A DNA stretch of 63,936 nucleotides, filler included, from Octopus bimaculoides (Eukaryota): NCBI RefSeq assembly GCF_001194135.2. It is 5 parts of 4 records of this genome, joined end to end, with 100 filler letters (N's around TTAATTAATTAA, not from the genome) between each part and the next. Parts side by side here need not be neighbours in the genome. Positions count along the whole stretch, not along the records: positions 11,898 to 24,657 come from NC_069002.1; positions 24,758 to 52,539 come from NC_068989.1; 3 more parts are not named here. The stretch is one strand, 5' to 3'. A program made the position numbers and the translations under genes. Below, piece by piece: positions 21,409 to 50,689 of the stretch. Position 1 is the first letter of the stretch; every line of letters begins with the position of its first letter. The notes under the pieces were generated by a model that made no database searches, was not told the DNA's origin, and saw only the letters and a program-made list of their open reading frames with translations.

Positions 21409-21443
21409 TATACTTTATTTAAAAGCAGCAGAAATATAACAAA

Positions 21444-21489
21444 AAAACCGTTACTCTGAGTTTCACGTTCCCGTTCATCGGACAGTTTT
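21444..21489 (-). ncRNA. Type I hammerhead ribozyme-like motif with CCGAUGA core variant (copy 1)
   Basis: AAAACUGU-CCGAUGA-ACG(GGAA)CGU-GAAA-CUC(A)GAG-U-A-ACGGUUUU. Stem I 8 bp, extendable to the gap edge. GUA cleavage triplet. Confidence 0.7.
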
Positions 21490-22947
21490 GTTATATTNNN
21501 NNNNNNNNNNNNNNNNNNNNNNNNNNNNNNNNNNNNNNNNNNNNNNNNNNNNNNNNNNNNNNNNNNNNNNNNNNNNNNNNNNNNNNNNNNNNNNNNNNNN
21601 NNNNNNNNNNNNNNNNNNNNNNNNNNNNNNNNNNNNNNNNNNNNNNNNNNNNNNNNNNNNNNNNNNNNNNNNNNNNNNNATATAATTATGTGTATTTCTT
21701 CTATCTTAATGAATAAAAATTCTTCTGATAGAATAAATGGGTTAATAGAAACCAATGTAGCAAAGAACACAAAATAATTGTGGTTTAGTTCCTGTTTTTA
21801 AGGCAGGAACTCCTTGAAAGTTTGGGTATTTGAGTATATTTAAGAATTTAAGGAATGGAGAAAACGCATGTTATAATTGCATACTTTATTCCTACATATG
21901 TTTCAAAGGATTACAACCTGTGTGAGCCATAGGGATCTTTGATATTAAAATTGTAACCTTCTCATCAGGGAAAGCATGGGAATCATCTTAAACGTAAGAC
22001 ATTATGACCATATATATATATTACTTTTAAAATTATATAAAAATAATTGAGAATTAAAAGTACAGAAAAAAGAGGCAGAAAAAAAAACAAAAACAGAAAG
22101 AGAAAATTTATAAACATATGACGAGGAAAAGGGTGAGCAAGATTTTGTGTAAGTTTCTTAAATTTAAGATGCAGCGTCGGAGTCCAACTCTTAGTTACAC
22201 GCTGAAAGGAAATGCGTGTGAAATTGGGGGCGCAATGTTTTGAAAATACATAACAGCGTTGTAATTGGCAGATTGTAGGTAGATTAGTGTAGAAAGATAC
22301 ATGCTGGCTTGGCGAATGGGAAGTTGAGATTGCAGATATAAATATATATATATAAAGGCAAAATGAACTGAACTAAACTAAAATAAGCTTTAAAATAAAT
22401 TGTTTTTGTTTCTGTGGGTTGTTTTGAGAACCACCAGACATTTTCGGTTCTTACCTTCTTTTCTACTCTAGGCACAAGACCCGAAATTTTGAGGGAGGGA
22501 GCTAGTTTCCGTAACTTAGCGGTTCAGCAAAAAGAGACCGATGGAATAAGTACTAGGCTTACAAAGAATAAGTCCTGGGGTCGATTTGCTCGACTAAAGG
22601 CGGTGCTCCAGCATGAAACAAGTAAAAGAGTAAAAGAGTAACTCTGAGGAAATGAAATCCTTCTGAGATTTGTGCCCATAACTTTAGACAGACGTAACCA
22701 AATCTCCAAATGTACCTCGATCACGTGTTCTAAAATTTCTAGCATTCCACGCATTTAAAAAAAAAAAATTCAATTTAAATCAACAAGAGAGAGACACTGT
22801 TTAGTAGGTCGATATGCTGTAAATACCAGCTAAACTTCCTTGTTTCATACGTGGCCATCGTAACAAAACAACAAATTCGACAACATACCCACATAAATAA
22901 GTACATACATACATATATACATACATACATGTATACATGCATACTTA

Positions 22948-23100
22948 CAAGCGGAGGCGCGTGGCTTAGTGGTTGGGGGTGTTGGACTCCTGATCGTAAG
23001 ATTGTGGTTTCAGTTCCTGGACCGGGCGTTGCGTTGTGTTCTTTAACAAAACACTTCATTTCGCGTACCCCCAGTTTACTCAGCTGGCACAAATGAGTAA
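22948..23100 (+). mobile_element. SINE family D (tRNA head GCGTGGCTTAGTGG, ..CACTCAGCTGGCA..)
   Basis: Matches copies at ~38545, ~39060 (-) and ~45535. Confidence 0.75.
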
Positions 23101-23147
23101 TGCTGAACGGATGTAAACACTGCTTGACTTGTTTCTCTTTTTCTCTG

Positions 23148-23180
23148 CCCCCTGAAGAAGGATTGAATCCGAAACTTTGG
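23148..23180 (+). ncRNA. Degenerate minimal hammerhead motif
   Basis: CCCC-CTGAAGA-A-GGAT(TGA)ATCC-GAAA-CTTT-GG. Helix III palindrome mutated (ACTT rather than ACGT). Confidence 0.4.
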
Positions 23181-23465
23181 ATATTCCACTCCTTACTGCA
23201 AGTTCACCGTACCCCATGCTGGGGCACCACCTTGGGTTTTTTTTAGTCAAACAAATTGACCCCAGGACTTATTTTTTTTCTTTTAAGGCCTAGTACTTAT
23301 TCCACCGGTCTCTTTTTGCCAAGAACTATGTTGCGGGGACGTAAACACACCAACACCGGTTGTCAAGCGGTGGTGGTGGGACAAGCACAAACACAAAGGC
23401 ACATATAGCGGCCTACACAAACACACACACAAACAGAAATATATATATATATGTATATATATGTG

Positions 23466-48225: not shown

Positions 48226-48264
<39 letters not shown>

Positions 48265-48347
48265 TGGAACAGGCTGATGAGAAATTTAGGGGAAAGTGCC
48301 TGAAGCACTGGTGCAGGATCAAAGTGATAGCCAGGAAGAGACATCTA

Positions 48348-48564
48348 AGAGGGGCTGCTGAAAAGTTCCTGGCTCTAAAGGTTTTGCGAAAGGCCTGATT
48401 GGAGGCCCAACTTTCCAAGTTCTTTTAAAGGGCTTAGAAAAGCTGAAGGACCACTGCAATAAGTGTGTGAACCTGAGAGGGGAATATGTTGAATAAAATC
48501 ATAATTAACTGATCCTCCTGTATTTTCTTTTGCCCAAAGCCAGGAACTTTTCAACACCCCCTTG
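48348..48564 (+). mobile_element. mariner-derived MITE (217 bp)
   Basis: 27-bp TIRs (..GCTGAAAAGTTCCTGGCT / AGCCAGGAACTTTTCAAC..), TA on both sides, internal GLEKLKDHCNKCVNLRGEYVE* matching a mariner C-terminus. Confidence 0.9.
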
Positions 48565-48919
48565 TATCATGTTGAAGAGACCAAGGAATGAGTGAGAGAG
48601 AAAGAGAGAGAGAGAGATGAGATGGAAACATTAGGTGCAGAAAGTGAGATGAATTCAGAGAAAAGGAGAAGAGAGACATTGAGACTAAACAATCAAAGTC
48701 TTTGTTGTAGAACGTTAAGTAATAAGAACGCTAAATTCTCTGCATATGCAGACATGACTCTTCAGAAATTATGCTAAGACATAGAGTATATAGCCTGGAC
48801 AGGAAAGATGGATCAGAAGTTGAGGAGAAGGAGGAGGAGCAATTCATATTTGAGAGTAGAATGTACAAACATATATATATATATATATACTTTATTTAAA
48901 AGCAGCAGAAATATAACAA

Positions 48920-48965
48920 AAGACTGTTACTCTGAGTTTCACGTTCCCGTTCATCGGACAGTTTT
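48920..48965 (-). ncRNA. Type I hammerhead ribozyme-like motif with CCGAUGA core variant (copy 2)
   Basis: Core identical to 21444-21489. Stem I 3' strand ACAGUCUU; distal stem I UAACAAAA/UUUUGUUA beyond a UC bulge. Confidence 0.7.
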
Positions 48966-50689
48966 GTTAGAAATGGAAAAGGAATAACAATGCAATCAAA
49001 AGTGATATAAAATTTAAAACACATGGATTCGTTTGATTGGTCGTTTCAAATAACGGTCATGGATGCATAATGAACAAAACAAATNNNNNNNNNNNNNNNN
49101 NNNNNNNNNNNNNNNNNNNNNNNNNNNNNNNNNNNNNNNNNNNNNNNNNNNNNNNNNNNNNNNNNNNNNNNNNNNNNNNNNNNNNNNNNNNNNNNNNNNN
49201 NNNNNNNNNNNNNNNNNNNNNNNNNNNNNNNNNNNNNNNNNNNNNNNNNNNNNNNNNNNNNNNNNNNNNNNNNNNNNNNNNNNNNNNNNNNNNNNNNNNN
49301 NNNNNNNNNNNNNNNNNNNNNNNNNNNNNNNNNNNNNNNNNNNNNNNNNNNNNNNNNNNNNNNNNNNNNNNNNNNNNNNNNNNNNNNNNNNNNNNNNNNN
49401 NNNNNNNNNNNNNNNNATATATATGACGGGTTTTTCCGTCTACCAAATCCACTCACAAGGCTTTGGTCGGCCTGAGGCTATAGTAGAAGACACTTGCCCA
49501 AGGTGCCACGCAGTGGGACTGAACCTGGAACCATGTGGTTGGTAAGCAAGTTACTTACCACATAGCCACTCCTGTGCCTATATATATATATATATACTGA
49601 GGGTGATAAATTACGCACACACACACACACAAGAATTCTTTCAGTTTCCATCTCTCAAATTCACTGACCAGGCTTTGGTCAAGCTGAGAGTATAACAGAA
49701 GACACTCGCCCAAGGGGTTGCACTGTGAGACTGAACTCAAGACTACATGGTTGGAGGGGAGGAGAGGAGGGGAAGAAGAGGAAGAAAAACCCTTTCAATT
49801 ATGGACACAAAGCTTCAAATTTTAGGGGATGACGATACTTGATTAGATCAACTCCAGTGTTTAACTGATGCTTATTTTATCGACTCCGAAAGGAAGAACA
49901 GCCGAGATGACCTTGGTGGAATTTGAAACCAGATTGTAAAGAGCTGGAAAATATGCTACTATGCATTTCGCCTGATGTGCAAACAATTCTGCTAGTTATT
50001 TATCTTAATCATCATCATCATCGTCATTAAACGTCCATGTTCCATGCAAGCATGGGTGGGACAAGAGCCGGCCAGGCTGTAGCATGCACCAGACTTCTGT
50101 GATTGTTTTAGCAGGATTTTTACAGCTGGGTCCCTTCTTAACACAAACCACTCAGCAGAGTGAACTTGGTGCTTTTTACGGGGCACCAGCACAGGTGAGG
50201 TCAGTTTTGGCAAGGTTTTTACAGCTGAAAGCCTTTCCAAATATCAACCACTTTACAGTGTGGACTGGGTGCTTTTAGGTGGCACCTGCACTGACAGGGT
50301 CACCAAGTACTTGCAAAACAAAATCTTTTAAGAGGGGAGGAGGCATTGTAGGTGGTGATGATGAAAAGGTTATAGTGAGACAGACATAGGTGTCTTGCAG
50401 AAAAGGAAGTACAAGGTTACCTGGCTGGAGAGAGAAAGATCCGGAATGAAGACAGAAACAGGTATACTACCGCAAAGAAAATACACGGTTGCCCAATAAT
50501 AATAATAATAATAATTTCTTTTATTAGTCATAATGGCCAATATTTATTGGTCATAATGGCCAAACACAAAACAGACAATGGCAATTAACAATACAATTAA
50601 ACAATAAAATTCCCCCAAAATGAGAGGAGCCAACCATGTCTGAAGACATAGTGAAGATGGATCTGAGATTATTATTTCACAAATAAATA

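What the first reader, a model, noticed from the sequence alone, without database searches (positions are those of the whole stretch)
21411..48970. Two copies (21444-21489 and 48920-48965, minus strand) of a complete type I hammerhead-like fold with a non-canonical CCGAUGA core
Seen: both copies read stem I-CCGAUGA-ACG(GGAA)CGU-GAAA-CUC(A)GAG-UA-stem I'. The core, stem II (GNRA loop) and helix III are identical. A difference in proximal stem I is pairing-neutral (U-G versus U-A), and stem I continues past a small bulge (12 bp in copy 1, 8 bp in copy 2). Known: type I hammerheads use a stem I bulge for loop II tertiary contacts, and 1-nt-loop helix III variants work as dimers in tandem retrozymes and Penelope elements. 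Inference: this is a small ribozyme-bearing retroelement (retrozyme-like) family with a U4C core and A-U at 10.1-11.1. Both copies follow (TA)n and lie 8 and ~120 nt from assembly gaps, as expected for collapsed tandem arrays.
Basis: partly seen in the sequence, partly recalled or inferred. Interest (0 to 1): 0.8.

Follow-up and report, generated by a model that had tools for sequence, protein, structure and literature searches.

The report
Penelope-element end with altered hammerhead ribozyme
These are two scattered copies of a short, very abundant animal repeat that carries a hammerhead self-cutting RNA motif with one unusual letter change (U4C), and it is likely the clipped end of a Hydra-type Penelope-like jumping gene rather than a tandem 'retrozyme'.

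Summary
In detail: two 96%-identical minus-strand type I hammerhead folds with a CCGAUGA core, predicted cut 21452/21451. The tandem-retrozyme reading does not hold. Public runs show a dispersed high-copy family (4,459 contigs laid from one DNA run). Depth is about 15-fold higher over an ~85-nt unit (hammerhead plus 38-39 nt, then (TA)n) than upstream, and short tandem joints are almost absent. C4 is family-wide (U4 under 2% of DNA depth, deduced), and the common variants shown sit at tolerant positions. Helix III, stem I, the (TA)n target and a downstream bulged 'tail' hairpin match Hydra-clade Penelope-like elements (PLEs). Of 141 related hammerheads from metagenomes and MAGs, all have U4, and two sit just ahead of intact ~720-aa PLE-like ORFs. 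These relatives make the same mini-copies: 5' ends about 30 nt below a TATA box, 3' ends 32-39 nt past the cut site. Best model: reverse transcription starts inside the uncleaved 5' pseudo-LTR transcript and runs off its 5' end. Cleavage is untested, and no autonomous partner was found in the window. Verdict: a new variant of a known kind; interest 0.45.

The parts
21413..21493 (-). Copy 1: 81-nt mini insertion (12 nt upstream of C3, hammerhead, 39-nt 3' segment)
   Evidence: BLAST of the two copies; lengths; same end positions as mini-copies of relatives
21447..21486 (-). Copy 1 hammerhead: stem I 21486-21482/21451-21447, core CCGAUGA 21481-21475 (C4 = 21480), stem II with GGAA loop 21474-21465, helix III 21461-21453, A17 21452; predicted cut 21452/21451
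   Evidence: sequence, descriptor, covariance model 38.2 bits
21386..21412 (.). (TA)n microsatellite at the 3' junction of copy 1, likely the insertion target
   Evidence: sequence; (TA)n preference in 26 of 27 Hydra families
48890..49084 (-). Copy 2: longer copy (at least 195 nt, cut by the gap at 49085): putative pseudo-LTR promoter, hammerhead, 38-nt 3' segment
   Evidence: sequence; contigs and reads cover all 30 bins, so the upstream part is family sequence
48923..48962 (-). Copy 2 hammerhead: core 48957-48951 (C4 = 48956), stem II 48950-48941, helix III 48937-48929, A17 48928
   Evidence: covariance model 45.4 bits
48890..48927 (-). 3' segment after the cut site: 3' arm of stem I, AAUAAA at 48896-48891, ending at the likely internal reverse-transcription start; the optional tail hairpin seen beyond this point in other family copies is absent from the window
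   Evidence: loose ends before 48885/48890; no match to the tail motif in the window
48972..48976 (-). Initiator-like CCATT (A = 48974, 17 nt upstream of C3): predicted transcription start, inside the family's depth drop at 48957-48978
   Evidence: depth table; same TTCTCCATT-type context in relative family F2
49005..49040 (-). Promoter-like elements: CCAATCA 49040-49034 and a weak TATA-like stretch 49011-49005
   Evidence: function inferred, not tested
48871..48889 (.). (TA)n microsatellite at the 3' junction of copy 2
   Evidence: sequence

Best explanation
The two copies belong to a dispersed, very high-copy repeat family whose ~85-nt core (a hammerhead fold with C4 plus 38-39 nt) sits in (TA)n tracts, and it is likely the pseudo-LTR end of a Hydra-clade Penelope-like retroelement, copied in trans by that element's reverse transcriptase/GIY-YIG protein. 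Mechanism: (1, inferred) a promoter in the pseudo-LTR starts RNA about 17 nt upstream of the core. (2, inferred from PAc biochemistry and from relatives) the element protein binds near the tail hairpin ~44 nt past the cut site, nicks (TA)n DNA and starts reverse transcription internally at about +38. (3, inferred) it copies back through the still uncleaved hammerhead and runs off the RNA 5' end, leaving an 81-85-nt insertion such as copy 1; longer templates give copy 2. (4, predicted) the ribozyme cuts slowly and mainly as a dimer through helix III, and U4C would slow it further, which would not hinder, and may help, copying across the site.
For: Family and boundaries: X2 summed depth is 1.1-1.5 million over 48894-48956, falling to 83-100 thousand at 48978-49040; RNA reads fall from ~400 to ~90. 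Hydra match: helix III actc-N-gagt in 5 of 26 Hydra-clade hammerhead rows, stem I ctgt/acag in Hydra-2_aMil, (TA)n preference in 26 of 27 families. The continuation beyond the window's 3' end (X24 143+48 reads, X2 34 contigs, X8 24) forms the same bulged hairpin closed by GAGY-ACU, ~44 nt after the cut, as Hydra-2_Amil and Hydra-2_Ajap and as relatives at about +39 to +51. Relatives: 141 matches in 124 loci. L051 and L016 have hammerhead, hairpin, then 714/724-aa ORFs with YRDD and KCRH motifs; look-alikes of the L051 protein carry HTH_animal, GIY-YIG or RVT_1. Their copies start 3-16 nt upstream of C3 (37 of 42 uncensored in F1, 23 of 30 in F2) and end 32-39 nt after the cut (45 of 63 in F1), with a second end at 99-106 (13 of 63). 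A TATA box starts at -43 to -39 in 19 of 21 hits among 93 rows, across 10 downstream signatures. 8 relatives have 11-15-nt flanking direct repeats and 42 of 133 have an inverted head-to-head copy; such inverted copies are typical of PLEs. A model built from relatives alone scores the window copies 45.4 and 38.2 bits, next best 13.5. Internal RT start, the optional tail, an uncleaved template and a protein-assisted hammerhead are shown for PAc (PMC11167929). A pseudo-LTR promoter is shown for Penelope (PMC2377424).
Against: No Hydra ORF remnant in the window (best E 0.33, the unrelated GIY-YIG fragment), and no autonomous partner of this family was seen; the one published octopus Hydra element has a different hammerhead. 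No genome was available. The relatives were fished with a pattern that fixes stems I and III, so the model score and their invariance are partly circular. Part of the upstream depth drop comes from diverged subfamilies (loose ends behind 48963/48968, agreement 0.47-0.72) and from how contig depths are summed. The TATA-like element of copy 2 is weak and ~35 nt from the initiator-like A. The published Penelope promoter is internal and TATA-less, so an upstream TATA start is my inference. No start site was measured. In RNA reads 56 of 248 carry G5A, so many transcribed copies are broken.
Confidence: 0.75

Rival explanations
1. Tandem non-LTR retrozyme: head-to-tail monomers self-cleave as dimers, circularise and reinsert; the gaps hide collapsed arrays.
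For: Type I topology and dimer-prone helix III. Retrozymes derive from PLE pseudo-LTRs (bioRxiv 10.64898/2026.07.22.740005). Monomers longer than the 205 nt laid would not show as joints. One contig each in X2 and X8 shows a tandem joint.
Against: A ~15-fold depth step in DNA is not expected if all copies were full monomers. 3' ends run into (TA)n or the Hydra tail hairpin, and there is no back-joint in 574 RNA reads. Gaps are common here, 19 in 64 kb.
Confidence: 0.1
2. A self-standing non-autonomous SINE-like element: a pseudo-LTR-only master (promoter + hammerhead + tail hairpin, ~250 nt, no ORF) that borrows a Hydra protein; the autonomous parent may be gone.
For: Depth falls again towards 49060-49084 (X2 from 84k to 5k; RNA from ~59 to 17), so few copies extend further upstream; tail-bearing copies are common in RNA; no ORF remnant. 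This is compatible with the best explanation and differs only in the nature of the master copy.
Against: The right-hand drop is partly an edge effect. Relatives with intact ORFs and their families show the same layout and the same mini-copies, so no special master is required.
Confidence: 0.3
3. The hammerhead is catalytically dead in this family; only the stems or the tail matter for protein binding, and U4C is a tolerated relic. The 5' pile-up comes from RT stalling or fold-back at stem I, not from a start site.
For: U4C considerably lowers activity in vitro (PMC3088659). Stem II is one pair shorter than in most relatives. PAc transposition in vitro does not need cleavage. Inverted head-to-head copies fit fold-back.
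Against: The variants shown at 10% or more in DNA within the hammerhead fall at tolerant sites: loop III 48%, bulge 36%, N7 17%, A1.3 to G (keeps a G-U pair) 12%; A17 to G is 0.06%. The same paper says viroid U4C still works in vivo. 5' ends of relatives track the TATA box across families.
Confidence: 0.25

Closest known systems
Hydra-clade Penelope-like elements (Craig et al. 2021, PMC8557442), e.g. Hydra-2_Amil, Hydra-1/2_Ajap, Penelope-3_HM
   Same: Type I hammerhead near the 3' end, helix III ACUC-N-GAGU with a 1-nt loop, stem I CUGU/ACAG, U before GAAA, tetraloop II, (TA)n target, bulged hairpin ~40-45 nt downstream.
   Different: C4 instead of U4 (26 of 26 published rows and 141 of 141 fetched relatives have U4); 3-bp stem II closed by A-U; longer stem I 5' arm; no ORF seen; differs from the published Hydra-1_Obim hammerhead.
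PAc (Poseidon from Anolis; Frangieh et al. 2024, PMC11167929)
   Same: Internal RT initiation downstream of the hammerhead that defines an optional tail; AT-rich targets; uncleaved template; no reads ending at the cut site.
   Different: Penelope/Poseidon clade with a canonical core; ORF starts inside stem II; tail start sites 111-118 nt into the ORF.
Metazoan non-LTR retrozymes (Cervera and de la Pena 2020, PMC7229834)
   Same: Non-coding, type I hammerhead, weak helix III working as dimers, PLE-related.
   Different: Retrozymes are ~220-400-nt tandem repeats giving circular RNAs; this family is dispersed, mostly ~85 nt, with almost no short tandem joints.
Viroid U4C hammerhead variant (as cited in Perreault et al. 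2011, PMC3088659)
   Same: Same core substitution; reduced in vitro activity but viable in vivo.
   Different: A viroid variant, not a change fixed across a high-copy chromosomal family. The primary paper was not held.

Membership tests
Type I hammerhead ribozyme | Three helices around a junction, stem I open | tested here: met
   descriptor; helix III only 3 bp + 3-nt loop as monomer
Type I hammerhead ribozyme | Core C3 U4 G5 A6 N7 G8 A9 / G12 A13 A14 A15.1 / U16.1 H17 | tested here: not met
   All met except U4, which is C in both copies and in at least 98% of X2 DNA depth (deduced)
Type I hammerhead ribozyme | G10.1-C11.1 pair | tested here: not met
   A-U here; 8 of 20 relatives are also unpaired (U-U type) at this column
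Type I hammerhead ribozyme | Covariation in stems | tested here: inconclusive
   Relatives: 3 pairs with two-sided change, score 0.131, 0/500 shuffles reach it, but slide +2 gives 0.132 and stems I and III were fixed by the search pattern. Within the family: pair-keeping changes only; a possible distal stem I A-U to C-G swap is not shown in cis.
Type I hammerhead ribozyme | Site-specific self-cleavage | not testable with these tools
   Needs an in vitro assay
Hydra-clade PLE | Single ORF with divergent RT and C-terminal GIY-YIG | tested here: not met
   No remnant in the window; present beside related hammerheads in L051 and L016; the rest of the genome was not available
Hydra-clade PLE | Hammerhead of Hydra layout in the pseudo-LTR | tested here: met
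   (model score partly circular)
Hydra-clade PLE | (TA)n insertion preference | tested here: met
   2 of 2 copies
Hydra-clade PLE | Optional tail at the 3' end; 5' truncation; inverted copies | tested here: met
   Conserved continuation in a fraction of copies, depth step, opposite-strand joints at 48965-48986; same in relatives
Non-LTR retrozyme | Head-to-tail tandem repeats with a hammerhead in each unit | tested here: not met
   1 of 4,459 and 1 of 1,166 contigs with a back-joint; monomers over 205 nt not excluded
Non-LTR retrozyme | Circular monomer RNA | tested here: inconclusive
   No back-joint in 574 reads of one RNA lay, about 6% of it read; library not selected for circles

The most novel reading that the evidence does not exclude
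A genome carries thousands to tens of thousands of ~85-nt 'run-off' copies made from the first nucleotides of a PLE transcript (start site to internal RT start), the PLE counterpart of strong-stop cDNA inserted as DNA. This family exploded because a fixed U4C change damped its own ribozyme, so that the template stayed uncut. That would be a chromosomal hammerhead family selected for lower activity, and the copy ends would map both the start site and the RT start in vivo.
Probability: 0.3. Interest if true: 0.7.

Novelty: new variant of a known kind. Interest (0 to 1): 0.45.

Why it matters
What PLE hammerheads do is an open question (stated in PMC8557442). This family offers a natural test: a core mutant that amplified to very high copy number while keeping the rest of the consensus, with U4 relatives as controls. 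The copy ends extend the internal-initiation model from one lizard element in vitro to the Hydra clade in vivo, and point to a conserved tail hairpin as the likely protein-binding site. CUGANGA-based descriptors would miss the whole family.

Tried and rejected
Own-genome search and download: no genome held. Rfam: no hammerhead hit. The exact-family degenerate pattern found 0 in metagenomes; the Hydra-type pattern found 0 in viral contigs. The tail motif is absent from the window. The idea that copy 2's upstream frame (LCIHDRYL) is a Hydra C-terminus was rejected: no profile score. Naiad membership was rejected: no match of six short motifs to an octopus Naiad consensus in the supplement, and Naiads lack canonical hammerheads. 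A first TATA regex was too strict and was redone. A-to-I editing is suggested, not shown: four sites differ 67- to 345-fold between RNA and DNA (48912, 48914, 48928, 48929) against 4- to 14-fold at CpG sites, but per-base counts of variable places are not enriched for A or T (0.43, 0.57 vs C 0.46, G 0.47), and the RNA and DNA come from different individuals. No RNA holder was listed as on record. No pile of read starts or ends at the cut site; with a fragmented cDNA library this is no evidence either way. Summed contig depth was not used as a copy number. Earlier scan findings: nothing. Papers not held: PMC147498, PMC5785218; the latter may already list such variants. Repbase and Dfam could not be searched, so the repeat may already be catalogued there.
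Full report
Observation. A generic descriptor finds exactly these two in the window, and a 32-nt core pattern has 2 matches against 0.00 expected. They share 83 nt at 96%. On the RNA (minus) strand each reads: 5' arm, CCGAUGA, a 3-bp stem II with GGAA loop, GAAA, helix III, GUA, 3' arm, then 38-39 nt ending in AAUAAAG, then (TA)n. 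Copy 1 begins only 12 nt upstream of C3; copy 2 runs at least 127 nt upstream into a gap. Folding alone is unremarkable (z -1.68, -0.40). The hammerhead monomer lies 3.6 kcal/mol above the MFE, helix III is +2.1 as a hairpin and -7.4 as a self-duplex, and the two-strand MFE forms the intermolecular helix. Rfam has no hammerhead hit. The window is a microsatellite-rich animal genome with 19 gaps; its GPCR genes look molluscan. That it is an octopus is my recall from its short repeats and comes from no call.

The family. No genome was held, so I used public runs: 23 of 24 listed hold part of the stretch, in organisms A, B and C. I laid 4 of them on 48880-49084 at 80% likeness: 574 RNA reads (X24, ~6% read), and 153, 4,459 and 1,166 contigs (X16, X2, X8). 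In X2, summed depth is 1.1-1.5 million over the hammerhead and 3' segment, drops through 48957-48978, and plateaus at 83-100 thousand upstream; RNA reads fall from ~400 to ~90. This depth is not a copy number, but thousands of distinct contigs and 2 copies in 64 kb indicate a very abundant family. Back-joints occur in one contig each of X2 and X8 and in no RNA read. Opposite-strand joints occur at 48965-48986, and also from 48921.

Is C4 the family state? X2 lists 6 G>A and 5 T>C places at 2% or more, and all 11 are among the 40 rows shown (85 rows hidden). None is 48956 (C4 to U), 48957 (C3) or a core A. So U4 is under 2% of DNA depth in organism A (deduction); in X8 it can only be bounded at roughly 14%. 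The frequent variants shown fall at tolerant positions: loop III 48%, stem I bulge 36%, N7 17%, A1.3 to G 12%. A17 to G is 0.06%, and CpG sites vary 1-3%, including G5A at 2.2%. This suggests that source elements kept the fold. It is a pattern, not a formal test, and subfamilies over 20% diverged would be missed.

What it is. In the supplement of Craig et al. 2021 (PMC8557442; I read main-text passages, File S2, the Hydra sheet of File S1 and the Hydra consensus file), Hydra-clade PLEs carry this layout. Helix III is actc-N-gagt in 5 of 26 rows, stem I is ctgt/acag in Hydra-2_aMil, 26 of 27 families prefer (TA)n, and all 26 cores are CUGA. Many family copies continue past the window's 3' end into a conserved sequence (X24 143+48 reads, X2 34 contigs, X8 24). 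By eye it forms a two-part bulged hairpin closed by GAGU-ACU about 44 nt after the cut, like the hairpins of Hydra-2_Amil and Hydra-2_Ajap (43 and 38 nt). The window copies lack it.

Relatives. All 141 matches have U4. After removing 8 duplicates, 133 remain: F1 69, F2 35, and 29 others not used for end mapping. Excluding the reference copy and ends cut by contig borders, 5' ends lie 3-16 nt upstream of C3 in 37 of 42 F1 and 23 of 30 F2 copies. 3' ends lie 32-39 nt after the cut in 45 of 63 F1 copies, with a second end at 99-106 in 13. With both ends visible, 23 of 37 F1 and 9 of 24 F2 copies are minis like copy 1. 42 of 133 have an inverted copy just upstream; 12 of 104 F1+F2 rows have flanking direct repeats of 8 nt or more, 8 of them 11-15 nt (no chance control). 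L051 and L016 have hammerhead, hairpin, then 714- and 724-aa ORFs; L001, L025 and L064 have an ORF end followed by the hammerhead. Pfam misses these ORFs, but their motifs match the published Hydra proteins and their look-alikes carry HTH_animal, GIY-YIG or RVT_1. A TATA box starts 43-39 nt upstream of C3 in 19 of 21 hits among 93 rows, across 10 downstream signatures; a start 30 nt below it falls at -13 to -9, where the 5' ends pile up. A covariance model from 20 of the 43 distinct relative cores scores the window copies 45.4 and 38.2 bits, next best 13.5; stems I and III were fixed by the pattern, so this is partly circular, and pair counts are inconclusive.

Mechanism. Shown: the motif, the family, its boundaries, the Hydra-type anatomy and the same mini-copies in relatives. 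From the literature: PLE promoters lie in the pseudo-LTR (PMC2377424, passages; that promoter is internal and TATA-less); PAc starts reverse transcription internally downstream of the hammerhead, which makes the optional tail, uses mostly uncleaved RNA, and its ribozyme needs the protein (PMC11167929, main text parts 1-2 of 4); PLE hammerheads are weak and dimeric (PMC4209133, parts 1-2 of 4). Inferred: here RNA starts near 48974 (CCAAT at -83, weak TATA-like at about -52, initiator-like A at -17 from C3), the protein nicks (TA)n, starts at about +38, crosses the uncut site and runs off the 5' end. U4C considerably lowers cleavage in vitro yet works in a viroid in vivo (PMC3088659, passages), so a slow ribozyme is the likeliest state. 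Confidence 0.75 for Hydra pseudo-LTR mini-copies; whether it cleaves at all is open.

Against. No Hydra ORF remnant is in the window, and the parent element was not seen. Part of the depth step reflects subfamily divergence and contig summing. No start site was measured. RNA reads cover both strands equally and include many broken cores (G5A in 56 of 248), which fits passive read-through from old copies. Editing is only suggested; PMC5625713 (passages) reports heavy repeat editing in octopus.

Novelty. Searches for hammerhead + Penelope + octopus (one paper, listed once), hammerhead + U4C (one paper), hammerhead + viroid with C4 terms (none) and pLTR/non-autonomous/Hydra (six listed) showed no report of this family, of a fixed chromosomal U4C, or of Hydra mini-copies bounded by start site and RT start. 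Retrozyme papers were read as passages or first part only (PMC7229834; bioRxiv 2026.07.22.740005, supplements not seen; PMC6765202). Two key papers were not held and repeat libraries could not be searched. Verdict: real feature, new variant of a known kind, interest 0.45.

Noticed in passing
window 56828-56457 and 56349-56314 (minus): GIY-YIG-like end of another Penelope-like element (62% to P0001, an RT-bearing protein) followed by a canonical minimal hammerhead (CUGAUGA, long stem II, palindromic helix III).
   Followed up: partly
window 7919-7954 (plus): A second minimal hammerhead of that same other family, just after a long trinucleotide microsatellite.
   Followed up: no
window 1874-9369 (minus): Cluster of intronless 7TM GPCR genes (7tm_1/Srw): two ORFs of ~322 aa and one in pieces at 5377-6331; look-alikes are mostly molluscan.
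   Followed up: partly
window 17122-17670 (plus): DDE_3 (Tc1/mariner-type) transposase fragment.
   Followed up: no
window 49425-49575 and 8 other places: A ~145-nt SINE-like repeat with 9 BLAST hits at 77-100%, usually beside (TA)n; one starts right after copy 2's gap.
   Followed up: no
L002, L010, L011, L020, L022, L027 and others: Hydra-type relatives often sit as head-to-head inverted pairs joined a few bases upstream of stem I (42 of 133 rows); these would form perfect hairpin RNA.
   Followed up: partly
L121-L124: Contigs filed as bacterial MAGs carry animal Hydra-type hammerheads, with PLE ORF pieces in L122-L124: likely host contamination.
   Followed up: no
window 48915-48968, loose ends: A subfamily with ATCAC before 48919 and GTGAT behind 48963 would be a compensatory change in distal stem I if both lie on one molecule; linkage not shown.
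   Followed up: partly
window 32115-32551: Tandem ~27-nt repeat giving open frames on both strands (EESEVPAV-like repeats).
   Followed up: no
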